Shown: one piece after another, positions 1 through 50,019 of the stretch
Position numbering within the stretch: the first letter of the stretch is position 1
Layout: every line of letters starts with the position of its first letter
NCBI GenBank assembly: GCA_963575745.1
Contig: CAUYUJ010000185.1
Location: forward strand, 62,001-117,092
Origin: Prorocentrum cordatum
Taxonomy: Eukaryota
Reading direction: 5' to 3'
Length of the DNA: 55,092 nucleotides
Notes under the pieces: generated by a model
What the model saw: the letters and a program-made list of their open reading frames with translations, nothing else
Told to the model about the DNA's origin: nothing
Database searches by the model: none
Position numbers and translations under genes: made by a program

Positions 1-226
1 GTCGCTGCTAGGGCGCGGCAATGGCCACCTGTACCATGTGCGGGGATATCGCGCATGGGGTGCAATGTTTCTCTTTTTAGGTCGAGCGGTTGCACCTAGG
101 GACGACGACGGCGACGCCGAATGCGTGCACATGTGCTCACCTGACGACATGTCACCCCCAAACACCAACATTCCCACACATTCTGCAAAATTATCGTGCG
201 CGTCGTGTCCGGACTGCGCGCGCTAC

Positions 227-432
227 CGATGACCCACCGATGACCTACCGATGACGCGTCATCGATGAGCTCATCGATGAGCTCATCGATGAGCTCATCG
301 ATGACCTGCCCCAAACCATATATATATATACGAAAAGTGCGATGTCGCATCGATGACTTACCGATGACCATCGATGTCCTACCGATGATCCACCGATGAC
401 CCACCGATGACCCACCGATGACCTACCGATGA
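227..432. repeat. Array of CCGATGAC/CATCGATG motifs, including tandem 12-bp palindromes CTCATCGATGAG
   Basis: gtcatcgatgagctcatcgatgagctcatcgatgagctcatcgatgacc plus flanking accgatgaccc units. Confidence 0.9.
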
Positions 433-689
433 CACGCCGACAAGAGCTCCCAAACCGTGACACGATGCCCTCCTAAAGCATTATGATGTCGAAGGAATCG
501 AGATAGTGTACGACCCGCCCATGTATTCTACATCATATTGCAGACATCGTCGTCGTCGTCAGTGTTATCATCATCATCACTGGTGTTTAAGCTATTCTGC
601 ACACGCGGTAGGCACTACGATCACGCCATCGTTGCTCACTTGTTTGCACCATCGTGTTCAGAGCCGCGTTTGGCTCGATTAATTGGACC

Positions 690-3600
690 ATGGAGGTCCG
701 TAGGCGGCGCACCTTGTCACCGCCCGTGGCACCAGCTGCGAGGGCCGAATCTGGAGAGGCCCTGCTCGCTGAGTTTCAACGTTTATTTTGTCTCGGCACC
801 ATCACAGCCAAAAGCTTTTGCGAGCTCGCGTACCACGCAGCCCGAGCTGGGGCCGTCGGGGAAATCAAGCAGTGGGGTCTAGCGCCTCAGCCGCAAGCGA
901 ACAGTGGAAACTACAACAAGCTCATCGAACGCAAGATCCGTGATGCTGGTGTCACTGTTGTACAACCCGTTAGCATAGATGTGCCATGCCAGGCACGGAA
1001 ATCTCGCAGCAGAGCCATCATGCAAACTGGAGCGCGCCCATTCCACGAGCTTGTGAAATCTGAAGTTGCATCACCGTTGTCTGCATTGGTTATGCGAGAG
1101 CGCATCTCCGACCGATCGTGGCCCCCCGCGTTCAACGAACATCCTGTCAAGGTCGGTGCTGGCCCTGGTGTCCTAGTCATACCAGTCGGTTTGTTTGTGG
1201 ATGCAGCGCAATATGGTGGCGCTGCTGGCGCTGGTCGGAGTAAATCTGTCTTGGTGTTTTCAATTATCAATTTGGCGACCCAGCGTCGCCATGTGGGGAT
1301 CACGTTTCGGAAGCACCTTCATTGTAAATGCGGCTGTCGCGGCAATTGCTCATATGCCAGGCTGTTCACATTTGTACGCTGGTGCGCCGACGCAATGTCG
1401 ACTGGTGAATACCCTCGGTCCGACTGGGACGGGCGGCGGTGGGCGGACGCCGATGCGGCGCGACGTGCGCTCGGTGGTACAAAGTTGGGCTTCAAATGTG
1501 CGCTGATTTACGTGATGGTAGACTGGGAAGCCCTGGTCAATCACCTTGGGCTGCCGCAGTGGAACTCGACTGTGGGATCCTGCCCGCTATGTGATTCAAC
1601 GCTGGCGAACAGGCACAGTTACAGGTGAGCGTTTTTTTTTCCATTCATTCATGCCAGTCGCGAAGTCATCATCCTCACCCTTTGTTTCGTCGTCCTCCAT
1701 TTCCTCCTACTCCTCCTTCCCCTCATCATCCTCCTAACCCACCCCCTTCTCGTCCCTCTCCCAACCCCTCCGCGACGGCGGAGGCGGCGACGACGTGCGT
1801 CCGGTTAGCATGAGTAATTCCAAACGCACGGTGCAACCAGCTCGACGCGCGCACGTGCATGCAACGAGACAATCCTTGCAGCAAGTGACGGGGGTATGTT
1901 GCAGCGCCTCGAGTAGGTCGCGTTTTTGATGTGTGGGCCCACATTAAAATTTAACCCCTGTGTACGCACATCATCCCTGGAGGATTGTCTCGTGACACGC
2001 TTGCTCCTGCTTGCAGCTTGGTAGAAGCATGCCGCTACCAGCCTTCTTCTTGAAGATGAGTCGCCCTGGGTAGATCACGATCAAGGTGACCACCTGGATG
2101 CGACGGCGCGCGCAACTGTGTGGGTCTTCATCGGATCAGAAACGGAACGAGCCGAGCTTTGGAGTTGTGCAGGCATGTATTTCGACAGGCGCAAGCGTGG
2201 TAGAGGCCTGACTGTCGGACGCCCCGTGCCCCCGATCAACGCTGCCAGTGCCGCTTTGGTTCCTGGGGACCGACTCTTCCCCCAGACTGGTTTGGAAGAT
2301 GTGGCGACGTACGCCGTTGTTGATTTCCCTGGTTGGATTAAGTTCTGGCGGCCTTCCAGGGCGACAATCGTAACTCAACCAAATCCTATCTGGGAGACAG
2401 GGGCAGGACAAGTCAGCGTTGTTGGTTCATATGCTATAGACTTTCTGCACACCGTTGCCCTTGGGGTGATGGGATCGGTAGTATGCTCGACGGCGTGGGC
2501 GGTGCTCGCATCTGATGTGTTTGCTCCGAAGGGCTTGGACAAGTCAACTCGGCATTCTCTCGGGATTGGACGTTTGAATGCATTGCTGGATGCTTGGTAT
2601 TCTGAAGAAGCCCGACAAGGTCGGACACCAAATCAAGTGGAAGGGCTTGTACCGACAATGTTCGGATCCCCAGGGAAACATGCAGTGAAAACGAAGGGGG
2701 CAGAAACGATAGACTTGTTTCGCTGGTGTGTCGAATCTATTTTGCCTGTCTATGCTGCTCGTATCCAGCATGGGGAGAACTTGTTATCGTGTGCGCAAGC
2801 TTTGTACGATTGGTATACATATCTCAAACAACAACCCGATTGTGTCCCAGATGATGCATGCGAGAATTTGAAAACGCTTGCCCTTCGACACCTCGTTCGG
2901 TTGCGAGCTGCACGAATTGTTTTACGTCCAAAGCACCACTTGTTCTGGCACCTGAATGCAAGGACCACATGCCTCTCCCTTGCGGTGATCGTTCAATGGG
3001 GGAGGGTAACATTTGACTCAGTGGTGAGGGTCAGGACGAACAGGAGGAGGAGGAAGAGTAACAGGAGGAGGAGGTGGGGGGTGATGAATGACGACTGCAA
3101 CATTCAAAACACAAACATGGGGACGGCGCGACGAATGCAGCAACGGTGTGGTCCGTTTGTCCTACTTTCCACACGAGATCAGACCTCGTACCATTCGCAT
3201 CGATGATGCATCGGTGGTGTGTCGATCGTGAATCATTGACGCATCGATGACGCATCGATGACGCATCGACGAGGCATCGATGATGCATCGATGATGCATC
3301 TGCGTCGAATCGGCGATGCATCGGTGGTGCATATGTGGCGATCGTCGTGCCGCAGTCGGTCGGACATAGCGTACACGCGTGAGTCCTTAGGTTGGTGGGG
3401 GGCTTGCGTTCTTGCTTACCAGAGCTGTACGTTAGTTTCGTCAGTGTGGACCCCGTGGGCCAAATAGATGCGGTGCCTCCCGAAACACGTGTTCTCCAAT
3501 CACCAAAGACAGTGCATCCCCATCAATGCGTGAGTCGGGCAATCGACACACCTTTCTCTGGCCACTCGCCATGGGACATCCTCGCAACGCCACCTGGTAA

Positions 3601-4088
3601 TAGCCAATATGATTCAATATCCTTATTCTGTTCTACTTCCCCTTCGGTCCCTCTTCATTGCTACTGTTGTCATTATACGCAGCTCCTCCCTCTCATAACC
3701 CTCCTCTCGCACATCTCCCACTGCTCAGCACGGGGCGAGGGGCCTTCACGAAGGCCGATCCGACGCCTCGCCGTCTGGTCAACGCCCCCCCCCCCCCCCA
3801 ATCCACGTCTCCGTGCCCTCTCACTCGGGGCAGTCTCCCTCACATCACCCTCTGATCCTCCTCTCCCCTGACCCCCATCAAATCCATCCATCGCCTCCTG
3901 AGCCCGAGAGGATTTCAGTTTTCGGGCACCCGCGCCTCTATGCCACCTGGCGGGATGAAACGCTCAATGCTCTCATAGCAAATTTGGCTGAAGTGAGTCA
4001 CAGTGCACAGTTTGAACGTGGTATATTCCAACGGCTTGATCTACAAGCCGCCTTGAACATCGGTGCGTCGCGACCACGCTTGCCCTGA
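690..4088 (+). CDS. Spliced DDE transposase, CMC (CACTA/Mirage)/Plavaka-like; exons 690-1624, 2042-2962, 3911-4088 (~677 aa)
   Basis: The exons join in frame (AG|GTGAG...CAG|C and AG|GACC...GAG|G). Motifs occur in the expected order: GLFVDA (D at 1200), CKCGCRG, VMVDWE (D at 1521), CPLC (1581), IDFLHTVALGV (2439), PKHHLFWHL (2931), GHPRLYATWRDETLN (E at 3957). Confidence 0.8.
3198..3325. repeat. GCATCGATG motif array inside transposase intron 2
   Basis: gcatcgatgacgcatcgatgacgcatcgacgaggcatcgatgatgcatcgatgatgcatc. Confidence 0.85.
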
Positions 4089-4160
4089 TTATCCTGATAG
4101 GTATTGCATCGCCTGGTATATCGTCTCCAGTTCCTACGTGGGTTTCGGAATTGGCCTCAG

Positions 4161-5217
4161 GCAATGATGACCAGTCGTATTGGGGACAAGTGCAGTATGT
4201 GGCTAGAACGGTGCCTTCTTTACTACACACAGGTGCACATGTGGCAAATGCTCGTGACGCACGTGACCCTACCCCCTCCCCAGTCCATCTTGCGCGTCGC
4301 CACGGCTGGAATCATATCGAATTCTAGCATGCTCACTACACGTCGGGGCGTGCGTTTGTTGCGAAGTGTCAGCCAGGTGCTATCGTACGGGACCTGGACT
4401 TCGCTCATATTTTCAGTGGGCGGGACTCACCTGGACGAGCCGCCCGCCGCAGGTCTTTGTCAGTTGACACCTTTGACATTCTAGATGACCCGAGTCTCGA
4501 CATCGCAACGTGTGCTGGGATGCTGTGGGCGGCCATCATGTGTGCCAGAGTTCGCCGTTCTGGCATGGTGCATTTCGGCATTGATTGCAGAAGCTTTGCT
4601 TGGATCTCTCGTTGGCAGAGTGGCAGGACCAAATCAGATCCAGTTGGGGACGACGGTTACCATCTATCTGCTCTCGGTAACCTCATGACGCTGTTCGTGA
4701 GTTGGGTTGGAACGTACCTGCATCTGAACGGAGTGTACTTTGGAATCGAGCAGCCAGTGTGCTCGATCATGAAGCATCATCCTGCGTTTTTGAGCCTGTC
4801 GCGGCGAATTAAGATCAACACTCTGTGCACGTGGTTGGGTGCGTTTGACAGCAAGCTCCCAATCCACAAAGGCATCCATATCTTTTCCAGCGCTTCGCGC
4901 AACTCCGAACCACGCATGCATCGAGATCTAACCCCCTTGGCCCCAACGCACCACGCCGCGTTCTGTTACCACGCGCTTCTCGCTCTGATTGCAGAGCAAC
5001 GGACACCACAGCGCCCTTAGACATCGTGAGTCGCTATTTGCGCAGGGCTAAGCCGAAGAAGGCGAAGTCGCGCAAGAGCCGTTCGTCTCACTGGACGCAG
5101 GTTGGAAATTGCGTCGTGGGTGGCCCAGCGCTGAAAGGTTCTGGTGCGTACCCTAGGGCGTTCGGAGAAAGCATGGCCAGGATGATCGTTCGTTTGCTCG
5201 CAGCTGATTCGCGCTGA
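4161..5217 (+). CDS. C5-cytosine DNA methyltransferase of the divergent transposon/virus type; exons ~4161-4232, 4377-~4889, ~5012-5217
   Basis: Motif I RDLDFAHIFSG (4388-4420), motifs II/III VDTFDILDDPSLDI, motif IV FGIDCRSF (Cys at 4586), GN helix, motif VI GIEQP (4742-4756), TWLGAF...HKG, and C-terminal SGAYPRAFG (~5140-5166). The 5' start and last intron boundaries are uncertain. Confidence 0.75.
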
Positions 5218-6261
5218 CTGTCATTAGCCGCTGTTGAGATTGAAGCGCGCATGTGCAAGTGCCGCAATTCGGAGTTATTTTATTCCAGCTGCTGTGTGGT
5301 ACTGGTGCTGAGCATTCCTACGCACGTGTGGAAGCATGTGTGGGCGTGTGTGCTCTCGTGAACTTGTATTTCGCCTTCGGTTCCAGACTGCTAATTCGCA
5401 TCGCCGTCCAATCATCTCTTTAAAGGGGGGGCGCTCTGATGTATCAGCGATGTACAACGCGCGAACATGCATCGGCGATGTCGTCGCTCCTGGGTCCTAA
5501 CTTGCGCACCAAGCCCCCACCATCATCACCATCATTATCATCATCGTTGCTGCCGCCATCATCGTCACCGTCGCACTCACTCAATCACGATTCCCTCTCT
5601 CCTCCACCAACAGGGTAGCATTCTTGCGGTGCGCGTGGTCTCAGATCCCGACCAGATACTGGAATGCCTCCATCAACGATGCATCGGCAATGCGTCGGCG
5701 GCGGTGCATCGGCGAGCGGGGGTGCGTCCGGTAAAGATCTGGCACCGTTCAATTGGCAGGGCGGCGGGCGCCTGCCCCGTGACAGGATGAGCACGCGTGC
5801 CTGGCAGCGCGCGGCGTTGGATTGCCTCTGCTCCGACCCGAACTGTCGCAACACCGTCTCCCCGACTCCCCATCATAGCTATCACTTCTGTCTCTGCTAC
5901 TCTTCTTCTCTGATTCTCAATTCCCTCCACCCTCGCCATCATGCGAACGCTGCGCGTGCCACACCTGCAGGGGTTGGAAGAGGAGGGAAGTAAATATGAG
6001 AGGGCGGAGGATGAGGAGGAGTTGGGTGCGGAGGGAGGGGAGGAGGAGGACGAGAACGATGATCCAGATAAAGATGAGAATGAGGCGGAGGCCTCGTCTT
6101 TCTGTCGCGGCCTTGGTCCGACCACCAAACTAACATTTGCATGGCCTACAATTCCACGCTACTTCGGCCCCCGCGCTCCTGTCCGTAGCACTTCATCTCA
6201 AGCCTTGCATTTGAGCGAGTTGAGTTTGTGTACGGTACTTCAGCCTTCAGTGGCTGCAGTG

Positions 6262-7166
6262 ATGAGCGCTCAGCAGCAGTTCCTGCTGAAGGGCCAGAAC
6301 GTGAACATTTCGAGAGTGGCCTGGATGCACGTGTACCTGGAGAATCTCCAGACGTGGGGCTTCTTCCCATTCTCTTGCGTGAACCAGGCCATGGGCGAGA
6401 AGAGTAACATGAGCGCAGCCGATGGCGAGCCTGAGGAGACTGCATTCGGAGTGTCGCCATCGGCTGTCAAGAACGAGCTCGGCATATACTTGTCGGAGTA
6501 CACGGATCCCACCGTCATCAAGATCTACATTGCTTACGGCCTCAAAGACGGAACCATCCCGAGGAAGGGCGGCGCCGAATACGGTAGCCATGATATCATC
6601 AGGCCAGAAACGTGGTTGTACATCGAGACTTCAGTTGCGCCACAGACGCCAGATTCGTGGAAGGACGCAGCGTGGCCCGATGATGACTACAATAACACCT
6701 TGGCCGAGAGCGCAGACGGCGTCGGCTCCGTGACGGTGTTCATCCAGGAGAAGGACGACTGGGAAACGATCATGCCCCCGCCCAAGGAGGTTCGCACAAT
6801 CAAGGGCACGGGCGTCGTGACGAACTACAACACGATTGTGCTCAAGAAGTGCGTGGCAAGCACGATGGGTATCGACGCCACTTCGAAAGGCGCCGTGAAC
6901 CAGATCCGCGTCTACCGCACCGAGGAGAGCGGCCAGGCAACGGGCTCCCCGTTGAAGGGCAACGTCTTGATCAACACGAAGCTGTCGTACGTGGTCGCGA
7001 TCGAACCAGACACTGTCGTGGAGGTGTTCGAGAAGAATGTGCTCAGCTGGGACATCGGCGACAACACGATGCTGGACGGGCCTCAGTGATCAAGCACGTC
7101 TTCAACGAGACGGTCATCTTTGCTCGCCATCGGACGAGCACGCCGCGACGCCGCTTGACGGCATAA
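6262..7166 (+). CDS. Uncharacterised accessory protein of the transposon cassette; possible frameshift near 7075-7090
   Basis: Non-repetitive ORF with strong C/G third-position bias from the ATG at 6262 to the stop at 7089. Coding-like sequence continues in another frame (ASVIKHVFNETVIFARH) to 7166. There may be additional upstream exons around 5670-5850. Confidence 0.55.
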
Positions 7167-7427
7167 GAGCTACAGCGCTCACCAACGGCACACCGACCTC
7201 AGCCGCCGTGGGTGCACCGCAAAAACGAGGCCAACAGTTGCATCAGCATCACCACACCTGTGCCATCATTGTTGCTACGCTTGTCTGCGTAATGTCTTAA
7301 CAGATTCGTTCAGCCCGTGTCGTTGTTTACGCAGCTGCCACCGCGTCCGGTATCCCTCTCTGGATCCCCGTGCCTCGCTGGGGTCTGCTACGCTCGCAGA
7401 GCTCGACGTGATCGAGCGTGGGCCAGA

Positions 7428-7752
7428 GATGCATCGGCGAGCAAACGATCATCGATGCGTCATCGATGACCTCATCGATGACGCGATGATGCATCGGCGA
7501 CGCATCTGCAACTACGGGACGACTACTGAACCTGGAACCTCGCAGCGTAGCAACGCCACCCTTATTCCGACAACTACCACTCCTCCCTCACTCGCCTCCC
7601 ACTCTATCCATCCTACGTCGTCTGCACCCGTTTCTTTCCACGCTCAATCCCCTGTTCCCGAGTCGGCAATGCATCGGCGCGGCAACCATCGATGAACTCA
7701 TCGATGTGTCCTTGACGAAATAGAGCAGTGCATCGGCGATGCATCGACGATC
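7428..7752. repeat. CATCGATG motif clusters between accessory ORFs
   Basis: atcatcgatgcgtcatcgatgacctcatcgatgacgc (7448-7485) and ccatcgatgaactcatcgatg (7686-7706). Confidence 0.85.
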
Positions 7753-7949
7753 CGCTTGACTACCCCGACGGATGTGGGGCCCATCAATTACACGGATGGA
7801 TGTTGGTGAGATCAATGGGCAGGTGCAGTTCAACACATATTGCGGATGGGGGCGGCTCGTTTGCAATTGTTTCAGACGTGAAACGAGTACGGGCCATCAA
7901 GGGTGATAAACATGATGATGATGATGATGTTGGTGACGATGGTGTAGCC

Positions 7950-8696
7950 GTTTTTGGGTTCGAGCTGCCGTTCGAGAGTTGCGATAGCTCCGATTGCAAC
8001 GAGCGCGACGCGCCAGCTGTGCGCCTCAACATCGCGTCGCACCCAGCGGCGTCGCACGAAGCTCGCACGTGGGCGCAGTACGGGGTTCTTCGGGCTACTG
8101 CAGCACAGGTGGGCGACGTCGGCGACGTGCAGGTCAACGGGAACATCAGCAACGACAACGAGCATTTCGGGCCGACCGAATACGAGCTATTCGACCCTGA
8201 CGACATGAGCCCGTCGGAAGGTGACGACGAACAGATGCCTGAAGCCGAAGGCGGCTCCAACGGGCCCGACGACACGGCGCAGCACGACAAGACGGAGAGC
8301 GGCACCGAGCAGCACGTGAAGCAGCATCATCAGCAGCAGCACGAGGATTCAGAGCTCGCCGTGACGAATGATGCCAACATGAAGGCGTTCGCTGAGGAAG
8401 TGGCCGCCTGGGATACGACGCTCGAGACGATGCGGGGCCACGTCGACGCCATCAAGGTACTGACCGAGAAGAACGAGCAGGCGGAGAAGAAGAAGCTCGA
8501 TCGCCTGCTGAAGCAGGTGAGGCCGCCCGCTGGCCCACTCGCCGACCTCGTGGCGCCTGCTGGCGCGCTCAGCGGCCTGGTGGGCAACGCGGAGCTCACC
8601 ACGGCTGCGCCGCCGCCGCCGATCGAGCCGCCCGCGATGGCCGAGCCGATCTCGTGGCCGTCGCCTACGTCGCCGACGGCAGACGAGCTCGCGTAG
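7950..8696 (+). CDS. Uncharacterised acidic/coiled-coil/Pro-rich protein (3' part of ORF 7728-8696)
   Basis: Codon-biased ORF with an acidic region, a heptad-like segment (MKAFAEEVAAWDTTLETMRGHVDAIKVLTEKNEQAEKKKLDRLLKQ) and a Pro-rich tail. The start is uncertain. Confidence 0.5.
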   Translation, partial: VFGFELPFESCDSSDCNERDAPAVRLNIASHPAASHEARTWAQYGVLRATAAQVGDVGDVQVNGNISNDNEHFGPTEYELFDPDDMSPSEGDDEQMPEAEGGSNGPDDTAQHDKTESGTEQHVKQHHQQQHEDSELAVTNDANMKAFAEEVAAWDTTLETMRGHVDAIKVLTEKNEQAEKKKLDRLLKQVRPPAGPLADLVAPAGALSGLVGNAELTTAAPPPPIEPPAMAEPISWPSPTSPTADELA

Positions 8697-8772
8697 GTCG
8701 AGGATTGCGGCGGCATTCGAACAAACGAGTGGCGATGGAGAGGATGAGGAGGATGATGGTGGTGATGATGAT

Positions 8773-8803
<31 letters not shown>

Positions 8804-8939
8804 AGGAAGGGGACGATGATGAGTAGGATGAGGAGGAGGCGGAGGAGGACGAGGAGGCTGAGGAGGCTGAGGAGGGGCAGGAGGAGGAGGAGGATGATGA
8901 GGAGGAGGAGGATGAGGATGAGGCGGAGGAGAAGGATGA

Positions 8940-8970
<31 letters not shown>

Positions 8971-9029
8971 GAGGAGAAGGAGGAGGAGGAGGAAGAGGAG
9001 GAGGATTGTTGGGGTCGGTGGCACGTTGA

Positions 9030-9090
9030 CGCATCATCGATGAGTCATCGATGAGTCATCGATGACGCATCGATGACGCGTCGATGCGCC
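9030..9090. repeat. CATCGATG array at the right end of the cassette (11-bp period)
   Basis: catcatcgatgagtcatcgatgagtcatcgatgacgcatcgatgacgcg. Confidence 0.9.
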
Positions 9091-9679
9091 GCCGACCGGT
9101 TCCCTGCTTCTCGCCCCCCTGCGCCCCAAAGGAGTGAGCTGCCGCGGAGCCTGCGCGCCGCGCGCGCTGCCCGTCGCCTGTCGCGGCGGAGGGTGTTTCC
9201 AGAGGGGAGGAGTGACACCGAAGGCGCTCCTCTTCCTCCTCCTCCTCCTCCTCCTCCTTCTCCTCCTTCTCCTTCTCCTCCCCCTCCCCTCCTCCTCCTC
9301 CTGCTCCTGCTCCTGCTGCTGCTGCTGCTGGTGATGCTGCTGCTGCTGCTGCTCCTCCTCCTTCTCCTCCTCATCCTCCTCCACCTCGTTCTCTTCATCC
9401 TGCTGCTGCTGCTGCTGCTGCTCCTCCTCCTCCTCCTCCTCCTCCTCATCATCATCCCACCGTTGAGGTCCCTGAGGCTGAGGAGGAGGAGGAGGAGGAG
9501 GACGAGGGGGAGGAAGAGGAGGATGAAGATGAGGAGCAGGATAATCAGGAGGAGGACGATCAGGAGAACGGGGGAGGGGGAGGGGAAGGTGGGGGGGCGA
9601 GGGGGGGGAGGAAAATGAGAAGGAGGAGGAGGAGGAGGAGGAGGAGGAGGACGAGGAGGAGGATGGATACGAGAACGGT

Positions 9680-9842
9680 GCAACCCACCGCAAACAGCGT
9701 ATGGTAGCCATCACGTCTTCAATAGATATGGCCACCCACCACAAACAGTGGATGGTAGCCGTCGCGTGTTTCACTCCATATGGCAACCCACCGCAAACAG
9801 TGGATGGTAACCGTCACATGTTTCACTCTATCTGGCAACCCC
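9680..9842. repeat. Minisatellite, ~52-bp unit x3
   Basis: GC(A/C)ACCCACC(G/A)CAAACAG..ATGGTA(G/A)CC repeated three times. Confidence 0.85.
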
Positions 9843-10569
9843 GGCTTTGTAGTCTGAGGTGAAGTTCGATAACATCGTCGAATTTCCTGGGATTTCGCTT
9901 GTAAAAAAAACAGCCGTTTTGGACTGAGAACCACGCGATATCGCGGCGGAAGTAAGTACAGTGTTTGAGACTCGCCATTCGCGCTTTACTGAACAACATC
10001 TGCTTCTCCTCCTCCTCGTCCTCCTCTTCCTCCTGCTCCTCCTCCTGCTCCTCCTCCTGCTCCTCCTCCTGCTCCTCTTCCTGATCCACCAGCTCCTCCT
10101 CCTTCTTCCGTTCCTCCTCCTTCTCATCCTTCGCCTCATCCCTCTCCTCCTCCTCCTCCTCCTCCTCCTCCTCTCCTCCTCCTCCTCCTCCCCTCCCCTC
10201 CCCTCCCCTCCCCTCCCCTCCCCTCCCCGCCCCTCCCTCCATCTCGCTCTCGACTTCTCCTCCTCCTTCTCTTCGTCCTGCCCCTCCCTCCCTTCTTCGG
10301 AGCGGCGGGTGGCCTCGATCTCGTAGTGGAAGTGCTCGGTGAATAAGTACGGCGCCGCTCTGCGAAGACATGGCCAGGGGCAGGCGGCACAGACAACAGC
10401 CGATTATCATATTTTGGGAAGGACCAGAAGTCTTTTTCGACGCAAGCGTTTCGCCTGATGAATCTTCACAGAATTTCCGAACGAATTCCTAAAACGATCA
10501 ATATGTTCATGCCTAACTCGCTGAATTCCGATGCAACAGCCATCATTACCCACTACATCGAAAGCTCAC

Positions 10570-10657: not shown

Positions 10658-13477
10658 ACCACGCATGCGAAGTCCAACGCTTGTTTTAGCAAGTGGCAAC
10701 CCTCTGGGGGCCTTGCGCCTTTGCCCGGCGCCTTAATCCGGCGCCTTAGCCCGGCGCCTCGGCCGCCTCAGCCGGGCGCCTGAGCGGGCCTTGAGCGACC
10801 GGGTCACGATTTGGAATGCATCGGGGGTCGCCTCGGTGCCATCCTGGGCAATCATAATGCTTCTTCGGGCCATCTCGGGACCCAGTCGCGTCGTTCTGGC
10901 GCTCTCTCCGGGTGTCTGAATGCCTCTCGGATAATTTTGGAACGACGTTCTGCCTTCCTGGGCGGCCTCGGACGCCCAGAACGCAGAAGAAGCGAACATT
11001 CTCCGAATCCGCCGACCCCGTCGGCGCGCCCGAGTCGCCAGTTCGTTTGACTTGCGCGCAAAACGGGCCGACATGCTGCGCGCGGGCACAGCTCAGCCGA
11101 AACCCGAACGTCCGACAATGGCACCGCCCACGCGCCCCACCCCCCACTCGCCCCCAGGCCGAGACGAGGGCCCCGTCGCGCGGCAAGTCAGGTCGAGATC
11201 GACAAGTCCTCAAACCAGACACCAGCATGCACGAGGACCGCGCAGGGCAGATCGCCCAAACCCAGATCGCTTGAACACTACGCCGAACGGCAACGAAGGG
11301 CACAGACTCACGCTTCGGGAGCACAACGCGCACGCAGGAGACGGGATACAGATGGGCAAACTATGACAAAACCGGGGGGGCGGGGAACCCGACGCAGCCG
11401 ACGTTATAACCTTTGGCGCAACCGCTGCCCCAACCAACGGCGCAGGCGGACAGAACGAACCTACTCGTGATTCGCGGGAACAAGAGCAATGACGCAACCT
11501 ACGGTCCACGGCGCAACTCACTCAGCAAAATGCGCCGCGTCGCCCCCGCCCCCCTCGGCAGCGCGATCACGATTGAAAATGAACGGACCGACCTGCTGCG
11601 CGCGGGCGCCCCTCAGCCTGCAACCGAACGCCCGACAATGGCGCGGCCCATAACTACTAGGCGCAATCAGGGGGGCAGCGCAGGGCGGAAACCGCGGGCG
11701 GAGCGGGCAATCGGGCCCACGTCGACGATAAGTGGGCGACTGGGCTATTGGGGGTCAACGCGCCCCCCCCTGGGCTTAGAAAAACATGCAAATTTTCCTC
11801 CCGCCACGCGCCCTCTACCTCCCCCTCCCCCCTGGCCAAGCCTAGGGGCCCGCGGCGTGGCCGGCCGAGCCAAGCTCGACTACTCCTCGAGCTGGGCTCC
11901 CAGAAGCCACCCAGATCCCCCGCTCGGACCGAAGCCCAGGCATCCCGGGCCGCAGCAGGCGGCCCCTCTAAGTCTCGAAGGCGCCAGCGGCGCCCTCGGC
12001 CAGGGCGCGCCCCAGGGCGCGCCCCGTCGCGCCAGGCGCGCCCGCGGGCCCCTCGGGGGGGCGGGGGCTCGGCGGGCGCGCCCGCCACCGCTGGCCGCCA
12101 ACGCGCGAGCGGTCGGCGGGCGGCGCCAGGTCGCCCCTGGAAGGCCGGCCGCCCACGTCCTCTGCTGGGACCGCGGCCAGCCCGCCCCGGGCCGCAGCGG
12201 GCGCGCCCAGGGCGCTTCGCCGGCGCCGGCGGCGCCCTCGGCCGGGGCGCGCCCCGGGGCGCCGGGCGCGGCCGAACCCCTCGGGGGCGGGCTCGGCGGG
12301 CGGGCCCGCCCGCCAGCGGCAAGCAGCCCAAGCTGGTCAACGCGAGGCGAGCGCCCAGAAGCACCCAACATGGCCCCCAAGGCCCCACAGAGCTCCAAGA
12401 GCGCCCCACTAGCAGAGAATCTGCACAAACTTTCGCGTCGCTGTCGTCGTCGTCGTCTGCGCTGTCGTCGTCGCCGTCGTCGTCGTCGCCGTCGTCGTGT
12501 CCTCCGTCCTCGTCTTGTCGCCTACCTGCCCAACAAGCGTCTTCTTCTGCGCCTCACCCCCCCCCCTGCCCCGCCCCCCCCCACCCGCCGCCCCCCCCCC
12601 CTGCCCCCCCCCGCAGCCCTCCCCCCCCCACTATTCCGCCCCCCCCCATGCGGCCGCGCATCTGGTGCGCGCCCGACGCCGAGTTCAGCGAGCAAGCAAG
12701 CGCCGCGGACAAGACGGACGCACCCCCCCCCCCCCGCGCCACGCCGCCGCGCGTGCCTCGCGAAGGCAACTTGCCAGGCGATTATGTTTGGATGGGCTGG
12801 CGGGGGCGCGCGAAGCGCGAAGCATCCAGATCGTCGCCCAAAATCGCAGCCGCCTCCGCGCTCGCGGTCGTCGAGCCGGCAAGCAGGGAGCGCGTCCCAC
12901 TGCGCGACTCCCCGCGCGGGACTGATACGCGCGTCGGGGCGTGCACAGCGGAGGCGGGGCCCTCTGCGCAGAGCGCCCAAGAGAAAGGCGCGCCCGAAGA
13001 CGCGAACCGCTTCGACGCGCATCCAGAGATGGCAGCTACAACCCCGTAGGACCGCGCGATCACGACGCGCATCTGCGCCCCGTCGCCACGCGCGATCCTC
13101 GCCGCAGCAGCACCGAGACGCGGCGTCGCCATGCACCTTTCGCTGACAGCCTCGACGTAACTCTGGCGATGGCTGCAACTCTGCCATGGCAGCAGGAGGC
13201 CGCGCGGGCCCTGGCGTCGCCGATGCAACCTGCAGACCGCGCAAACAAATCCGGCATCGCCTCGCACCTCCGTCGCGCACAGCATCAGAATTACACGCCG
13301 CGCCCTCGTAAGTACCCAGACTCGCTCGCGCCTGAGAGAGTCGATTTCCGCATTCGCATCCAGCGGCCACGCCTGGCGGGCGGGCGAAGGGCACGCCTGG
13401 CACGCAGACCTCGAACCACAAGTCGCCAGAGCAGAAGAGGAGGAAAAGGAAGAGGATGTGAGAGGATGAATATAGAG

Positions 13478-14560: not shown

Positions 14561-16691
14561 CCCGAACAGACACGAAGACATCTCGGCGCGCACGGCGGAC
14601 ATGGACACTGTCAACCGCTGAGAACTGGGCTGGACAAGCCCAGGGCCCGAAAAGGATGCGCGGCAATGACAGGGAGACAGCGGGAGGTTGCTCGACGCGG
14701 TGTCTCAGAGGAGGACCGAAGCCGGACCGAACAAGCAAAACTCTACGCCCTTCTCCACGAGTCACCGAAACATCGTTCCAAAAACGCCTCCCCGACGACT
14801 CTGGCGAGGGCGCCGACAGCCCACTGTCACCCATGCTTCCAAAGCGTTTGCTGCATAATTTCGACGCGGTCACCTGCAGAACCCCCGAACGCTCCAAGGC
14901 GGCCCAAGGCGCCCGACACGTTCGCGGCGCCCCCTTTTGTCAGGCGCGCGCAAGCGGAGAGGCAGAAGACTGCCAATGAGCCAACGAGCCAACGATGCAA
15001 TAAAGCAGGGCAGAGGCGGCAGCCTCTAGATTACGCCGTCGGAATTCCCAGCGCCAAGGTTTCCCGCGCGCGGTCGTGGGCTCAACGGGAGGCGCCCCCC
15101 TTGCTGCCGCGGCCCGACGGGGCCCCCCTGGGGGCGCGCGGGGCACTGCGAGGCGCGAGATGGCGCGGGCCCCGCGTGAAATGACATCGGCGCGGCCCAG
15201 CGCGGCAAGGCGCCGGCGCGGCGCAGCACGGCATTGGCACGGCACGGCGTTCGCGAAGGGCGGTGGGGGGGGGCGTGAGCCAGAGGAGGACGGTGGAACA
15301 GGGCGGGGGGGGGGGGGCGGAAACCGTGCTTTTGGAAAACAAGAAACCCGCGTAGGACGTTGGGAAATCCCAACGCGAACGAACGTTGGGGCCTCCCCGA
15401 CTCCTGGGCCGCGGCGAGGACCCATGCCTGCCACCACCCCGCCCGCCCCGCGCCCTTGCCCCACTGCCGCGGGTGGCTGAACGAGTCGGCCTTGCCTTCG
15501 CGGCGCCGCGCCCACGGGGCAAGCCCCCCCTCGATATTCTGGAGGACCGCCACGGCGAAAGTGGCCCGCGAGGCTTGGACTCGCAGGATCACGTGATCCT
15601 GGCGCCAGCGCCCCCCCGACCTGGACGAAGGCCAGCGAACTGGCCTCCAAAGCGCATGCGTCCAGGTACTCTTCGCCAGAGTGCCACCTGCGATTGCCCT
15701 TGAGATGGCCGGACGGACTGCACACTCCGGGGTAATCTCGGGCAGGGTCCGCGCGCGCCTGCTCCAGCATCAGCTGCGCGAGCGACTCGAATGTCCGCTG
15801 CCAGGTCCGACGTGAAAGCCTGCATGCGCGCAAGTTCAGAACCCTTCCCCACGGGACGCCCGCCCTGCCGCGGATGCCTCGCGCCAGGAGAAAAGCACGG
15901 GCAACTGCTCTAGGCCTGTTCGCGGTAACACCTGGGCCCTCCGAGCCAGCCACCGCTTCAACAAAAGCGATCATCTCCACCATCTCGGGCACCAGCGCGA
16001 ATACCTTGGAGACGACACCCGCACGCACCAACTCATCGGGGAGGCGCGGATCGGGGACCACGGCGCGCCGCCCAGGCCCCGTTGGCGCCCAGCGGGCGCG
16101 CCGGCCGCGGCACCAGCAGCGGCGGGAGGCGCGGCACAATCACCCTGCGCGAACCCCGCGCGCGCGCCCGCGCGCTAGGTGGGCCAGGTTGCACGGAATG
16201 CCGCGAGCCCGGCTTGACCCTAAAAGGCTACGGTTCAACTGATCGCGCCTCCCGGGGTTGTGCATCCACTGACCCTAAGTCTGGGGCCCAAGGGGGGGCT
16301 CGGAATCCACCATCCCCGCGTCTGCGGCTTCTGCGCATTGTTTCGCATCGCTCTGCCGGGTATTGCTTGGCACTGCTTGGAATTACGGCTCATCGCTTTG
16401 CATTGCTGTGCACCGCACCACATCGATTGCGTCTCGTTAAGTATCCTTTCTAAAAAGAAAATAGACTCTACCCCCCCGGACTTAAGGCTTCCACCTGGGA
16501 TAATATAATTTCATATATATATATATGTGTATATATATAGATTCTGCACACTCGTCTCTCCTAAATATGAAATCATACCATCCCAGCTAGACCGGTGTCC
16601 CCCCCCCCCTGAGGGCCCCGTGTAAAAGACACTATGCGGTGACATTTTTTGTTTTAGCATAACACTTGTTCGCGAATCCCTTGCAAAAAAA

Positions 16692-17125
16692 GACGAGGTG
16701 CACACGCGCGCGTCGTCGCGCGCGCATGCCGAAATCCTTCAAAAACCTTCGGTGCTGGAAGGATTTCGCAATCGAGTTGCCAAAAAAACATACAAAAACA
16801 CATGGTTTCGCAACACTGATTTGCTAAAAAAGCTTCCGCGCGAGCTCTTGCGAAATCTTAAGAAAACCATGGGTTTTCAAGATTTTCACAAAATGCTACC
16901 AAACGGGCGTCGCGCGCGCGCATGTCGAAATCTGTCGAACGCCCTTGCGCGTGTGCCGTGGCGAGAACCCTCTGCAAAAAAAAAAAAAAAAAAAAAAAAC
17001 GAAGTGCAGACGCGCGCGTCGTCGCGCGCGTACGCCGAAATCCTTCGAAACCCATCGGTTTCGGAAGGATTTCGAAATCGCGCGTCCAAAAAACCTACCA
17101 AAACCCAAGGTTTCGCAACACGGAT
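16692..17125. repeat. Diverged direct repeat (~120-bp unit, ~306-bp spacing) with internal hairpins
   Basis: acga.gtgca.acgcgcgcgtcgtcgcgcgcg..gccgaaatccttc...gaaggatttcg occurs at ~16692 and ~16999. Confidence 0.8.
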
Positions 17126-19129
17126 TTTCAACAAAAGCGTGCGCGCGCGCTCCGGCGTCGTCGTCGTCGTCGTCGCCGTCCTCCCTCCTCCCGCGTCGTC
17201 GCCGCCGTCGTCGCCTACGTCGTCCTCTGTCTTTTCTCGTGTTCGTCGTCGTCGTCCTCTTTGGCGTCGTGGTCGTTTCCGTCGTCGTTGTCGCCGTGGT
17301 CGTCTTTCCTCCTCCTCCCACGTCGTCGTCGTCGTCCGTCGTCGGCGTCTCGTCGTCGTCCCTCCTATTTCGTCGCCGTCGTCGTCGTCGTTGTCGTCGT
17401 CGTCTTCCTCCTCCCTCGTCGTTGTCGTCGTCGGCGTCGCGGTCCTTCCTCCTTCGTCGTCGTTCGCGTCGTCGCCGTCCTCCCTCCTCCCTCGTCGTTG
17501 TCGTCGTTGTCGTCGTTGTCGCCGTCGTCGTCCTTCCTCCTCCCTCGTCGTCGCCTTCGTTGGCGTCGTCGTCGTCTTCGTCGTCGTCGGCGTCGGCGTC
17601 GTTGTCGTCGTCGAAGTCGTCGGAGACGTCGTCGGTGTCGTCCTAGTCGTTGTCGTCGGTGTCGTCGTAGTCGGTCTGAACAGGTTTTGCAAACCAAGTT
17701 GCGGGTGGGTGGGTGGGATGTTTGCACAAGCAGTGGAGAGGACAGCTTTCAGACAGTCAAAGTGGACTGCACCACCTAGACTGCAACGCGTTGATTGCAC
17801 CACCGAGATTGCACCATATTGACTGGACCACCGCGAATATTGTACGATGTCACTGTGTGGGGCCCACGCTAACTAGCATGTTTCGGCAAAGATAGGAGCT
17901 CCAAATGGCAAGCATGGATGTGATAGTTTTCATACATCAACATACACGTACCCATATAGACAGCAAGACAGGCAACTAGAATGTGCATACATGATTATAG
18001 AATGTGGGAAGGCCAGCCGAACTCTAGGCAAATACACAGAGAAACAAGGAGGCAACGATAGAAACCTCTAGATGTCTGCTGCTAGATTCAATTATGCACG
18101 GCTGCTGGATACAGGTACAAATAACGGCGTAATACGTTATCTCTCTACATATATATATATACATACATATAGAGAGGCATACGAATGTAATAATCTGCAC
18201 GTACACAGGTGTGGGCATTGGCATAATTACATGTATAGTGGAGCACTGCAAATAGAACCACAAATAATCAAACATCTACCAGTGTCGTACATGAATGCAC
18301 GTACGCCGGCATATCAAACATATGCGCGTAATAGGCACATGCGTACATGTGCGTGTGCAGAGACGTTTGTTCGTAGATACCGTCCCTCATATACGAATTC
18401 GGATTCCTGTACACATATAGAGAGTACGAAAAAAATGTTGTGTAAATATATACACACATATACATATATATATATATATATATGTACATTCAATATTATA
18501 TGCACCCCTTATAGACATATGCATACATATGTGCATACATTGATGCGCAACTACATACAAACATGCTACCCGGTCCTCGGCATCGCCATGATCAGATTCA
18601 CGAGCACATTCACCACCATCACCGACGTGAACGAATCGTGGTCGTCGGTTCAACGGTGCTGGTTCGGCGTTGGAAAAAACCTCGAGGGAGCCCACTCACG
18701 GCGAACAAAGCAAGAGAAACTACGTGAACTGAGGGGGGCGCCGCGCCCATCCCCCGCCCCCCGCAGGGCGGTCTTGTTAGTAAACTCATCTTGTTCTTCA
18801 TCCCCGTCCCGCTTCCTCCTCCTCCTCCTCCTCCGCATCATCATCATCACCACCACCATCATCACACCCAGACCCATACCCATACTCATACTCATACGCA
18901 TTATCATAACCATACTCAGACTCACACTCACACTCACACTCATACTCATACTCATACTCATACTTGTACTCGTCCTCGTACTCGTCCTCCGCCTCCCCCT
19001 CCTCCTCCTCCATCTCCTCCTCCTTCTCCTCCTCGTTCGACTGATTCACGTCCACGCATCCCCTACCCCCCAGCCCCGCGATGACAACGGGGACCGCGGG
19101 GCGCGCGAGAGCGCGCCGGTGACTGCGGT

Positions 19130-46866
<27,737 letters not shown>

Positions 46867-49826: not shown

Positions 49827-49851
49827 TCATCATCATCATCAACAACACCAA

Positions 49852-49954
<103 letters not shown>

Positions 49955-49966
49955 GCCATCATCACC

Positions 49967-49998
<32 letters not shown>

Positions 49999-50019
49999 CA
50001 CAATCATCCACATCATCAT

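What the first reader, a model, noticed from the sequence alone, without database searches (positions are those of the whole stretch)
690..9100. DNA transposon carrying its own cytosine DNA methyltransferase
Seen in sequence: an apparently intact three-exon DDE transposase is followed within ~0.3 kb, on the same strand, by a C5-MTase with FSG, DC, EQP and YP motifs, then by two unknown ORFs. Established knowledge: dinoflagellates have CG-biased methylation, and DNMT capture is described for their retrotransposons (LINE and DIRS elements in Symbiodiniaceae). Inference: this is an independent capture by a cut-and-paste CACTA/Mirage/Plavaka-like element, a combination I do not know to be described in this lineage. 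The enzyme might methylate new copies as host mimicry, or regulate transposase binding.
Basis: partly seen in the sequence, partly recalled or inferred. Interest (0 to 1): 0.9.

Follow-up and report, generated by a model that had tools for sequence, protein, structure and literature searches.

The report
Transposase gene paired with methyltransferase-like gene
A cut-and-paste-type transposase gene is followed directly by a gene for a very divergent DNA cytosine methyltransferase-like protein, and the same pairing recurs in distant marine relatives, so the two genes travel together.

Summary
On the + strand there is a three-exon transposase-like gene (690-4088; my splice model gives 677 codons without a stop). 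It is followed without a gap by a three-exon gene for a methyltransferase-like protein (about 4079-5217), then by two unknown ORFs.

Pfam recognises none of them. The methyltransferase-like core folds with high confidence (pLDDT 95.5). Its structural neighbours are C5 cytosine methyltransferases, and a profile-profile comparison puts motifs I-IV in register. It belongs to a large unannotated family (1753 representatives).

The adjacency is not chance. A metagenome contig about 60-70% identical in protein carries the last transposase exon directly upstream of the same gene. dN/dS is 0.08-0.36.

Still open:
- Mobility is unproven: no target-site duplication, and no second copy in the window.
- Enzymatic activity is unproven: the family has P-x-C where true enzymes have Pro-Cys (I-D-C in this copy), the target-recognition region is small, and this copy has no ATG.
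- The transposase superfamily rests on weak leads only.
- It is unclear whether ORF3 and ORF4 belong to the unit.
- No result supports a dinoflagellate host. The only named relatives come from a Pyramimonas (green alga) data set.

Verdict: a new variant of a known kind, a transposon-linked DNA-modifying enzyme. Interest is moderate to high.

The parts
225..440 (.). Left array of 11/12-bp repeats (ACCGATGACCC type, and four palindromic CTCATCGATGAG units at 253-304)
   Evidence: TRF rows 225-255, 227-304 and 340-440. CATCGATGA matches. 253-304 pairs with 9082-9034 in inverted orientation, 92% over 52 nt.
690..1624 (+). Transposase-like gene, exon 1 (ATG at 690; canonical donor CAG|GTGAGC at 1624/1625)
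   Evidence: ORF 612-1628; splice model.
2042..2962 (+). Transposase-like gene, exon 2 (3' edge uncertain by a few bases)
   Evidence: Six homologues at 57-61% identity. Their similarity stops right after KPKHHLFWHLNxRT in all of them. Splice models.
3190..3350 (.). Array of GCATCGATGAT-type 11-bp repeats inside transposase intron 2
   Evidence: TRF 3197-3300, 9.5 copies; repeat families D5, D7, D8.
3911..4088 (+). Transposase-like gene, exon 3 (...GHPRLYATWRDETLN...; stop at 4086-4088)
   Evidence: 70% identical (40/57) to L002 121-291, E 1e-17. Frame-compatible splice model.
4079..4232 (+). Methyltransferase-like gene, exon A (conserved N-terminal region; no in-frame ATG; a CTG overlaps the transposase stop)
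   Evidence: 43% identity to the N-terminus of P0002, E 6e-14. 40% identity to L002 312-467. Frames. Best donor CAG|GTGCAC at 4232/4233.
4377..4889 (+). Methyltransferase-like gene, exon B: catalytic core with FSG, FD, DI, (I)DC and EQP
   Evidence: 62% identity to L001 and L002. AF2 pLDDT 95.5. Foldseek and VIA matches to C5 methyltransferases. hhalign.
4997..5217 (+). Methyltransferase-like gene, exon C (basic KPKKAKSRKSR stretch, then the GAYPRAFGESMA helix motif; stop at 5215-5217). 5' edge is 4997 or 5012.
   Evidence: 48% identity to L001 and L002 in a shifted frame, as in the window. GC-AG intron candidates.
5440..5730 (.). Degenerate TGCATCGGCGA / GATGCATCGG repeats downstream of the methyltransferase-like gene
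   Evidence: Repeat families D8, D11, D16; sequence.
6262..7089 (+). ORF3, 275 codons from the ATG at 6262; unknown protein; GC3 0.81
   Evidence: ORF 5914-7089. No Pfam, NCBIfam or PHROG hit. No relative in viral contigs. GC3.
7430..7750 (.). Array with three TCATCGATGAC units plus TGCATCGGCGA variants
   Evidence: TRF 7449-7482.
7800..8696 (+). ORF4, acidic protein with a coiled-coil-like stretch; unknown; GC3 0.75
   Evidence: ORF 7716-8696. No significant family hit. GC3.
9024..9090 (.). Right array of TCATCGATGAG / CATCGATGACG 11-bp repeats; last occurrence in the window
   Evidence: TRF 9034-9086. Inverted match to 253-304. No CATCGATGA beyond 9076 in 55 kb.

Best explanation
The region holds one genetic unit of transposon type. 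A three-exon gene for a DDE-transposase-like protein (about 677 aa, CACTA/Plavaka-like by weak leads) is followed on the same strand by a three-exon gene whose first exon begins on the transposase stop codon. This second gene encodes a roughly 300-aa protein with the catalytic fold and motif order of C5 cytosine methyltransferases. The protein belongs to a large, unannotated family that is closest in structure to small (about 210-220 aa) phage and giant-virus DNA methyltransferase-like proteins.

Shown:
- the fold and the motif register;
- the conserved linkage of the two genes in a relative that is about 60-70% identical in protein;
- purifying selection on both genes;
- arrays of a palindromic, CpG-containing 11/12-bp unit (CATCGATG core) that bound the 9-kb stretch in inverted orientation, precede every ORF in it, and occur nowhere else in the 55-kb window.

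Inferred:
- the transposase moves the unit by cut-and-paste, using the arrays as subterminal binding sites;
- the linked enzyme methylates cytosines, most plausibly the CpG in those arrays, and so tunes transposase binding or the element's promoters. Models for this are the methylation-sensitive TnpA sites of En/Spm and the Dam control of IS10/Tn5. The En/Spm case is recalled from memory; the IS10/Tn5 references are cited in PMC3627910.

ORF3 and ORF4 may be cargo or neighbours.
For: Methyltransferase fold:
- AF2 of window 4370-4909 with a 110-sequence alignment gives pLDDT 95.5 and pTM 0.90.
- In Foldseek against the PDB, 49 matches have E<=0.001, and every row listed in the top 50 is a C5 methyltransferase (DNMT3A/B/C, DNMT1, MET1, DIM2, Dnmt2, M.HaeIII, M.HhaI). 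Best E is 5.4e-5 and TMq is 0.5-0.57.
- In VIA-align against 48,161 chains, rank 1 is M.HhaI (Z 9.5, rmsd 3.1, 146 aligned), rank 2 a prophage DNA-modification methyltransferase (Z 9.3), and rank 4 the Dnmt2 homologue EhMeth (Z 8.9).
- In BFVD the best hit has E 1.6e-7 and TMq 0.68. Other hits include the Lactococcus phage P087 putative DNA methylase and the Tetraselmis virus 1 putative cytosine DNA methyltransferase.
- hhalign of the family alignment against 8 annotated C5 methyltransferases gives probability 68%, E 4.7e-5 over 68 columns, with FSG on FAG, DI on DI(T) and Cys on the catalytic Cys.
- 13 of 110 family members hit phrog_757 'DNA methyltransferase' at E<=0.01 (best 1.9e-6).
- The ESM Atlas gives 0.96 to a cluster auto-named DNA (cytosine-5-)-methyltransferase family.
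- C73 is invariant, and G17, E127 and P129 are at least 90% conserved in 110 sequences.

Linkage:
- L002 carries the transposase exon-3 homologue (70% identity, 121-291) directly upstream of exon A (312-467), the core (628-1158) and exon C (1293-1460), with the same frame changes as the window.
- P0152 (methyltransferase-like) and P0183 (transposase exon 2) both list a longest contig of 4432 nt.

Selection: dN/dS between the window and L002 is 0.14 (core), 0.24 (exon C), 0.36 (exon A) and 0.08 (transposase exon 3).

Transposase:
- The spliced frame is open for 677 codons.
- Six homologue clusters form at least 5 lineages at 55-68% identity, with conserved exon ends.
- The nearest named ESM Atlas clusters carry Plavaka PF18759 (0.88) and Transposase_21 PF02992 (0.85).
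- The longest structural alignments are to the RAG1 and ProtoRAG insertion domain.

Repeats: CATCGATGA occurs 28 times against 0.64 expected, always within 259-9076. 253-304 against 9082-9034 is inverted at 92% over 52 nt.
Against: Family membership:
- No Pfam hit for any ORF.
- 0 of 47 family members scanned carry PF00145.
- The window's own core hits no PHROG.
- hhalign covers only motifs I-IV, at 68% probability.
- In VIA-align, other Rossmann methyltransferases (Dam Z 9.1, FtsJ 8.5) and dehydrogenases (8.3) lie within about 1 Z unit of the C5 enzymes.

Departures from active enzymes:
- The family has P-x-C where true enzymes have Pro-Cys, and this copy reads I-D-C.
- ENV is replaced by EQP.
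- Motif I has one glycine.
- Only about 45-50 residues lie where a target-recognition domain should be.

This copy:
- Exon A has no in-frame ATG.
- 23 of 68 family members have a strongly hydrophobic N-terminal stretch, some of them signal-peptide-like, which is odd for a nuclear DNA enzyme.

Transposase:
- The exon-2 model is poor (pLDDT 57.7), with no Foldseek match at E<=0.001 and VIA Z<=6.6.
- The DDE triad was located only by patterns recalled from memory.

Mobility:
- There is no second copy in the window.
- The contig depths of the runs laid give no sign of many copies (the tool warns that depth is not copy number).
- No target-site duplication could be defined, and the left array lies 225 nt from the window's edge.
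- L001 and L002 lack CATCGATG arrays.

Other:
- CpG observed/expected is about 1 in the unit, so there is no trace of methylation-driven decay.
- The GC3 of ORF3 and ORF4 differs from that of the pair.
Confidence: 0.6

Rival explanations
1. The pair is a domesticated, immobile host gene pair. A transposase-derived gene and a neighbouring methyltransferase-like gene are kept by the host for a cellular function and no longer move.
For: - Strong purifying selection on both genes (dN/dS 0.08-0.36).
- No second copy in 55 kb.
- No sign of high copy number in the runs laid.
- L001 and L002, from two metagenomes, differ at 1 of 1146 bases, as one single-copy locus of one species would.
- No target-site duplication could be defined.
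Against: - At least 5 transposase lineages at 55-68% identity occur in marine assemblies.
- At least two diverged methyltransferase-like paralogues over the same region (P0010, P0011) occur in one Pyramimonas data set. This fits a diversifying element family.
- Inverted arrays bound the unit.
- Purifying selection is also expected between lineages of active elements.
Confidence: 0.2
2. The linked protein is not a DNA cytosine methyltransferase. It would be an RNA or small-molecule methyltransferase, or a non-catalytic SAM-binding or DNA-binding accessory factor that only keeps the fold. This is compatible with the unit being a transposon.
For: - It lies outside Pfam PF00145.
- P-x-C / I-D-C replaces Pro-Cys, and EQP replaces ENV.
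- The target-recognition region is very short.
- Dnmt2-type tRNA enzymes are among the best structural matches.
- Hydrophobic N-termini occur in 23 of 68 members.
- PMC12344493 (passages read) notes that for orphan DNMTs it is hard to tell DNA substrates from RNA substrates.
Against: - The Cys and Glu at the catalytic positions are invariant or nearly so across 110 diverged sequences.
- The sequence-level bridges lead to phage DNA methyltransferase families.
- The closest viral structures are annotated as DNA methylases.
Confidence: 0.25
3. The stretch is a fragment of an integrated virus or virus-like element (giant-virus or polinton-like insert). In that case the methyltransferase-like gene, ORF3 and ORF4 would be viral genes, and the transposase a passenger.
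For: - The best structural neighbours of the core are small viral DNA methyltransferase-like proteins, including one from a green-alga giant virus.
- ORF3 and ORF4 have no known relatives and a different codon bias.
- Mariner elements carrying a C5 methyltransferase are described inside giant-virus genomes (PMC3627910, passages read).
Against: - No relative of transposase exon 2 or of ORF3 was found in 2.9 million viral contigs.
- No viral hallmark family appears in the 8 ORFs of the region or the 58 ORFs scanned in the rest of the window.
- Both genes carry spliceosomal-type introns at positions conserved in relatives.
Confidence: 0.08
4. The adjacency is chance, or a nested insertion of two unrelated genes.
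For: None beyond the fact that only one copy can be seen in the window.
Against: - The same order, strand and abutting arrangement occurs in L002, at 62-70% protein identity and with saturated synonymous divergence.
- Two proteins of the two families list the same 4432-nt contig length.
Confidence: 0.03

Closest known systems
DNMT-carrying retrotransposons (SymbioLINE-DNMT and SymbioDIRS-DNMT3 of Symbiodiniaceae, Gypsy-DNMT3 of charophytes, EpiLTRs). Sources: PMC5890265 (abstract and passages read) and bioRxiv 10.64898/2026.05.21.726589 (passages read).
   Same: A mobile-element unit that carries its own cytosine-methyltransferase-fold gene.
   Different: Those are retrotransposons with reverse transcriptase, and their DNMT domains are canonical (Pfam-detectable, DNMT3- or DNMT4-related). 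Here the partner is a DDE-transposase-like gene, no reverse transcriptase was seen, and the enzyme lies outside PF00145.
Mariner-1_OLpv, a Tc/mariner element in a giant-virus genome that encodes a transposase, a restriction-type endonuclease and a C5 DNA methylase. Source: PMC3627910 (passages read).
   Same: A cut-and-paste DNA transposon with a C5-methyltransferase gene as a companion.
   Different: [quoted passage not shown] Here there is no endonuclease, the genes have introns, the enzyme is divergent, and the transposase is of a different type.
KDZ / Plavaka / other DNA transposons of fungi that encode a TET/JBP dioxygenase. Source: PMC12730594 (summary and passages read).
   Same: Transposases of the CACTA/Plavaka-like kind linked to a gene for a DNA-cytosine-modifying enzyme.
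   Different: The enzyme there oxidises 5mC. Here it would write it. The hosts there are fungi. Here the host is an unidentified marine eukaryote.
En/Spm (CACTA) of maize, with subterminal 12-bp TnpA-binding repeats whose methylation controls activity (recalled from memory; no paper was read for this).
   Same: Arrays of a 11/12-bp motif containing CpG near the ends of a CACTA-like element. A plausible link between methylation and transposase binding.
   Different: En/Spm relies on host methyltransferases. Here the element would bring its own. Binding and methylation of the arrays are untested.
Small viral DNA methyltransferase-like proteins of about 210-220 aa (Lactococcus phage P087 putative DNA methylase; Tetraselmis virus 1 putative cytosine DNA methyltransferase).
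   Same: The best structural matches to the core: TMq 0.58-0.68, E 1.6e-7 to 1.8e-4. They are similarly short, with little room for a target-recognition domain.
   Different: Sequence identity is only 12-16%. Their activity is not known to me either. They are not linked to a transposase as far as these tools show.

Membership tests
C5 cytosine DNA methyltransferases (Pfam PF00145 DNA_methylase) | Match to the curated family model | tested here: not met
   No PF00145 hit for the window ORFs at E<=1, nor for 0 of 47 family members at E<=0.01.
C5 cytosine DNA methyltransferases | Class I Rossmann methyltransferase fold whose closest structures are C5 enzymes | tested here: met
   pLDDT 95.5. All listed rows of the Foldseek PDB top 50 are C5 methyltransferases, best E 5.4e-5. 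VIA rank 1 is M.HhaI at Z 9.5, but other methyltransferases lie within about 1 Z unit. BFVD best E 1.6e-7.
C5 cytosine DNA methyltransferases | Motifs I (FxGxG), II and III (DI) for SAM binding, in order | tested here: met
   hhalign against 8 annotated enzymes puts FSG on FAG and DI on DI(T), probability 68%. G17 is at least 90% conserved. Caveat: the second and third glycines of motif I are absent.
C5 cytosine DNA methyltransferases | Motif IV Pro-Cys with the catalytic cysteine | tested here: inconclusive
   The cysteine is invariant in 110 sequences and aligns with the catalytic Cys. The proline, however, is one residue further away (P-x-C), and this copy reads I-D-C.
C5 cytosine DNA methyltransferases | Motif VI Glu-Asn-Val | tested here: inconclusive
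   E127 and P129 are at least 90% conserved as E-Q-P at the end of a strand in the model. hhalign did not extend to this region.
C5 cytosine DNA methyltransferases | Target-recognition domain between motifs VIII and IX/X | tested here: inconclusive
   Only about 45-50 residues, rich in Lys/Arg, lie between the last core strand and the C-terminal YP..F helix motif. No full-length model was made.
C5 cytosine DNA methyltransferases | SAM-dependent methyl transfer to C5 of cytosine in DNA | not testable with these tools
   Needs the recombinant protein or methylome data.
CACTA/Mirage/Chapaev and Plavaka/KDZ-type DDE transposases | Match to Transposase_21, Plavaka or KDZ family models | tested here: not met
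   No such hit for the exons at E<=1, nor for 7 of 7 exon-2 homologues at E<=10.
CACTA/Mirage/Chapaev and Plavaka/KDZ-type DDE transposases | RNase H-like catalytic fold with a DDE/D triad and an alpha-helical insertion domain | tested here: inconclusive
   The catalytic region is split over exons that could not be joined for folding. The exon-2 model is confident only for a helical bundle, residues 135-293. Best Foldseek hit is RAG1 at E 0.56. RAG1 and ProtoRAG give the longest VIA alignments, at Z 6.3-6.4, which is not significant. ESM Atlas leads: Plavaka 0.88, Transposase_21 0.85.
CACTA/Mirage/Chapaev and Plavaka/KDZ-type DDE transposases | Terminal inverted repeats and target-site duplication | tested here: inconclusive
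   Inverted 52-nt match of repeat arrays, 253-304 against 9082-9034, 92%. Because the unit is a palindrome it also matches in direct orientation. True termini and a target-site duplication could not be defined. The window begins 225 nt before the left array.
CACTA/Mirage/Chapaev and Plavaka/KDZ-type DDE transposases | Several copies in a genome | not testable with these tools
   No genome is held. There is no second copy in the window. At least 5 diverged lineages occur in metagenome assemblies.
DNMT-carrying retrotransposons (SymbioLINE/SymbioDIRS/Gypsy-DNMT3) | Reverse transcriptase (with endonuclease, tyrosine recombinase or integrase) in the same unit | tested here: not met
   No reverse transcriptase, integrase or recombinase family in the 8 ORFs of 612-8696.

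The most novel reading that the evidence does not exclude
A previously unrecognised, Pfam-invisible family of compact cytosine-methyltransferase-fold enzymes (at least 1753 clusters at 50% identity in marine eukaryote data) includes a lineage that is an integral, co-evolving second gene of a CACTA/Plavaka-like DNA transposon. On this reading the element writes 5mC on its own CATCGATG arrays to gate transposase binding or transcription. That would make it a self-methylating cut-and-paste transposon, the mirror image of the fungal transposons that carry TET/JBP erasers.
Probability: 0.3. Interest if true: 0.85.

Novelty: new variant of a known kind. Interest (0 to 1): 0.66.

Why it matters
Transposons that carry their own DNA-methylation enzyme are known among retrotransposons and in one virus-borne mariner element. 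Fungal DNA transposons carry the opposing enzyme, TET/JBP. A cellular cut-and-paste element with a tightly linked, selected methyltransferase-fold gene would add the missing combination.

It would also give a compact system for asking how an element uses cytosine methylation for its own regulation rather than suffering it as host defence.

Separately, the linked protein belongs to a very large family that domain-based DNMT surveys cannot see. Inventories of methylation enzymes in marine protists may therefore be incomplete.

My three literature searches and the passages read found no description of such a pairing. Subscription-only papers and all supplementary files were not examined.

Tried and rejected
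Searches that led nowhere:
- Pfam on the 8 ORFs, on 47 family members, on 7 transposase homologues and on 58 ORFs of the rest of the window: no meaningful hit.
- NCBIfam: nothing.
- Rfam on the whole window: nothing.
- PDB by sequence for the methyltransferase profile, the transposase profile and exon 1: nothing meaningful.
- Homologue search for transposase exon 2 among longer proteins: none.
- Viral contigs: no relative of transposase exon 2 or of ORF3. The family alignment was too variable to scan with.
- tblastn of the core against phage records: two chance-level hits.

Sequencing runs:
- No RNA holder is listed, so splicing and expression could not be checked.
- The runs laid are short contigs at low depth. 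They show 100%-identical pieces in two marine metagenome runs but bridge nothing. The joints listed fall in repeats.

Other checks:
- A recalled dinoflagellate spliced-leader motif gave one match with 2 mismatches at 28160, no better than 9 of 100 shuffles. It gives no support for a dinoflagellate.
- A second cluster of TCATCG hexamers at about 35 kb is a (CAT)n microsatellite, not the array.
- hhalign against Dcm alone gave only 15.7% probability. It rose to 68% with 8 enzymes.
- Fold of transposase exon 2: low confidence, and no significant structural match.

Not available or not done:
- I considered a frameshifted pseudogene for the methyltransferase-like gene and rejected it. Relatives show the same three-part structure with a frame change at the same place.

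Full report
**What is there**

The window is eukaryotic DNA and no genome is held for it. None of the eight ORFs scanned hits a Pfam family at a meaningful level.

**The transposase-like gene**

- Exon 1 runs from the ATG at 690 to a canonical donor, CAG|GTGAGC, at 1624/1625.
- The only GT-AG solution that keeps the frame uses the acceptor CTACCAG| at 2041.
- Exon 2 has six homologue clusters at 57-61% identity in public assemblies. In all six, similarity stops right after KPKHHLFWHLNxRT, which marks a conserved exon end.
- Exon 3 (...GHPRLYATWRDETLN..., stop at 4086-4088) was found through its 70% identity to a metagenome contig.
- The model 690-1624 / 2042-2962 / 3911-4088 gives 677 codons and then the stop. 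Intron 2 is GA-AG in that model. GC-AG variants a few bases away are equally open: one search found 74 frame-compatible GT/GC-AG combinations. Without RNA the edges stay inferred.

*Superfamily.* The support here is weak.

- There is no Pfam hit for the window's exons or for 7 of 7 exon-2 homologues.
- The ESM Atlas puts unnamed clusters first, at 0.94. The nearest named clusters carry Plavaka PF18759 (0.88) and Transposase_21 PF02992 (0.85), below the tool's 0.9 line.
- An AF2 model of exon 2 with 12 sequences is confident only for a helical bundle, residues 135-293 (mean pLDDT 57.7).
- Foldseek finds nothing at E<=0.001. RAG1 is first, at E 0.56.
- In VIA-align, RAG1 and the ProtoRAG transposase give the longest alignments (141-149 residues, over their insertion domain). 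At Z 5.8-6.4 these are not significant for a helical model.
- Sequence patterns that I recall from CACTA/Plavaka transposases are present: D..Q after a strand, S...NL...R, D..A followed by CxxC, D..H, and H..HL...G.P....W.DE. This comparison comes from memory, not from a test.

**The methyltransferase-like gene**

*Gene structure.*

- The core ORF (4328-5020) has two close relatives at 60% identity.
- The ORF just upstream (4040-4324, same frame) is homologous to the N-terminus of one of them (E 6e-14).
- The ORF downstream in another frame (to 5217) is homologous to the C-terminal part of full-length family members and of two metagenome contigs.
- L001 and L002 show the same three-part structure, with a frame change at the same places. 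The breaks are therefore introns, not decay. The in-frame TAG at 4325 falls in the first of them (best sites).
- One oddity remains. Exon A has no in-frame ATG in this copy. A CTG overlaps the transposase stop where L002 has an ATG overlapping its own transposase stop.

*The family.*

- A profile search of 1.84 billion representatives finds 1753 family members at E<=0.001 and 376 at E<=1e-10.
- They are mostly about 300-aa proteins from marine assemblies.
- None of 47 scanned carries PF00145.

*Fold.*

- With 110 of these sequences as the alignment, the window's core folds at pLDDT 95.5.
- Every listed row of the Foldseek PDB top 50 is a C5 cytosine methyltransferase (best E 5.4e-5, TMq 0.5-0.57).
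- The independent aligner ranks M.HhaI first (Z 9.5). However, Dam, FtsJ and some dehydrogenases follow within about one Z unit.
- Among viral models the best matches are short (about 210-220 aa) DNA methyltransferase-like proteins of phages and of Tetraselmis virus 1.

*Sequence-level bridges.*

- 13 of 110 members hit phrog_757 'DNA methyltransferase'.
- hhalign of the family against eight annotated C5 enzymes gives 68% probability. Motifs I, II/III and IV are in register and Cys falls on the catalytic Cys. Against Dcm alone the probability was 15.7%.
- The cysteine is invariant. The G of FSG and the E and P of EQP are at least 90% conserved.

*Departures from active enzymes.*

- P-x-C replaces Pro-Cys, and this copy reads I-D-C.
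- EQP replaces ENV.
- Motif I has one glycine.
- Only about 45-50 basic residues lie where a target-recognition domain should be.
- 23 of 68 members have a hydrophobic N-terminal stretch.

**Are the two genes one unit?**

Yes, as far as linkage goes.

- In L002 the transposase exon-3 homologue (121-291) ends a few bases before exon A of the methyltransferase-like gene (312-467). The core and exon C follow. This relative is only 62-70% identical in protein, and synonymous sites are saturated.
- dN/dS is 0.08 for the transposase exon and 0.14-0.36 for the three parts of the second gene.
- Two proteins, one of each family, list the same longest contig length of 4432 nt. This is suggestive only, because the contig could not be fetched.

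**Repeats**

- CATCGATGA occurs 28 times against 0.64 expected, always between 259 and 9076.
- The arrays have a period of 11-12 bp. They lie before the transposase, inside its second intron, after the methyltransferase-like gene, between ORF3 and ORF4, and after ORF4.
- The outer arrays match in inverted orientation, 92% over 52 nt. Because the unit is a palindrome they also match in direct orientation.
- The read-through tails of two transposase homologues translate to the same kind of repeat. L001 and L002 have none in the stretches held.

**Mobility**

Mobility is not shown.

- There is no second copy in the window.
- The left array is 225 nt from the window's edge.
- No target-site duplication could be defined.
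- The low-depth contigs that could be laid give no hint of many copies.

In favour of an element family:

- At least 5 transposase lineages at 55-68% identity.
- At least two diverged paralogues of the second gene in one Pyramimonas data set.

**ORF3 and ORF4**

ORF3 and ORF4 have no relatives that I could find. Their GC3 is much higher, 0.81 and 0.75 against 0.43-0.66. They may be cargo or neighbours.

**Host**

- Nothing in the window names the host: there is no Pfam hit in 58 further ORFs and no Rfam hit.
- The only named relatives of the methyltransferase-like protein are four fragments from Pyramimonas sp. CCMP1952, at 53-67% identity.
- The recalled dinoflagellate spliced-leader motif gave nothing beyond chance.
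- The dinoflagellate framing is therefore unsupported.

**Literature**

- DNMTs inside retrotransposons are described (PMC5890265; 10.64898/2026.05.21.726589).
- A giant-virus-borne mariner element carries an endonuclease and a canonical C5 methylase (PMC3627910).
- Fungal KDZ/Plavaka and other DNA transposons carry TET/JBP. SET-domain genes occur in Harbinger and MuDR elements (PMC12730594).
- Orphan DNMTs of viral origin are discussed in PMC12344493.
- I read abstracts and matching passages only, and no supplements. Three full-text searches turned up no cellular cut-and-paste element with a linked DNMT-fold gene.

**Verdict**

The second protein works like, and is distantly related to, C5 cytosine methyltransferases, but it is not a member of the curated family and its activity is unproven. 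The transposase assignment and the mobility of the unit are plausible, not shown. I rate it a new variant of a known kind.

Noticed in passing
family of the protein encoded at window 4079-5217 (proteins P0002-P0151): The methyltransferase-like protein belongs to a family of at least 1753 clusters at 50% identity that no Pfam model recognises. 23 of 68 members with a long N-terminus carry a strongly hydrophobic, partly signal-peptide-like stretch.
   Followed up: partly
window 8776-9005, 9227-9663, 10006-10287: Long GAG/CTC trinucleotide arrays form imperfect inverted repeats of about 200 nt (for example 8781-8991 against 10006-10216, 72%) just outside the right-hand array.
   Followed up: no
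window 9680-9841: A 52-bp tandem repeat, 3.1 copies, 83% matches. One contig of run X1 shows a diverged version (table 3).
   Followed up: no
window 10790-10850: A short stretch is covered at depths of 120-210 in all three runs laid, against about 2-8 elsewhere. It is probably part of a high-copy repeat shared with the marine metagenome runs. 13-bp GCGCCTT..CCCGGCGCCT repeats lie next to it at 10715-10781.
   Followed up: no
window 6185-6206: About 55 nt upstream of ORF3's ATG, a 20-nt stretch (CCGTAGC...CTCAAG) loosely resembles the dinoflagellate spliced leader as I recall it. It was not among the matches with up to 2 mismatches and may be chance.
   Followed up: partly
window 16626-19145 and 49537-51146: The longest ORFs outside the finding translate to low-complexity repeats (poly-V/S/R, poly-H, MYVC repeats from microsatellites). 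They are not genes. 58 ORFs of the rest of the window have no Pfam hit.
   Followed up: partly
L002 1700-1900: Downstream of the methyltransferase-like gene this relative has its own tandem motif (AAGCCACAxCTCCACCTCAC...GCGTAG...) instead of the CATCGATG arrays.
   Followed up: no
window 11062-11130 and 11582-11650: A direct repeat of 69 nt at 83% identity, 520 nt apart, in a very GC-rich stretch (family D12; GC up to 0.77).
   Followed up: no
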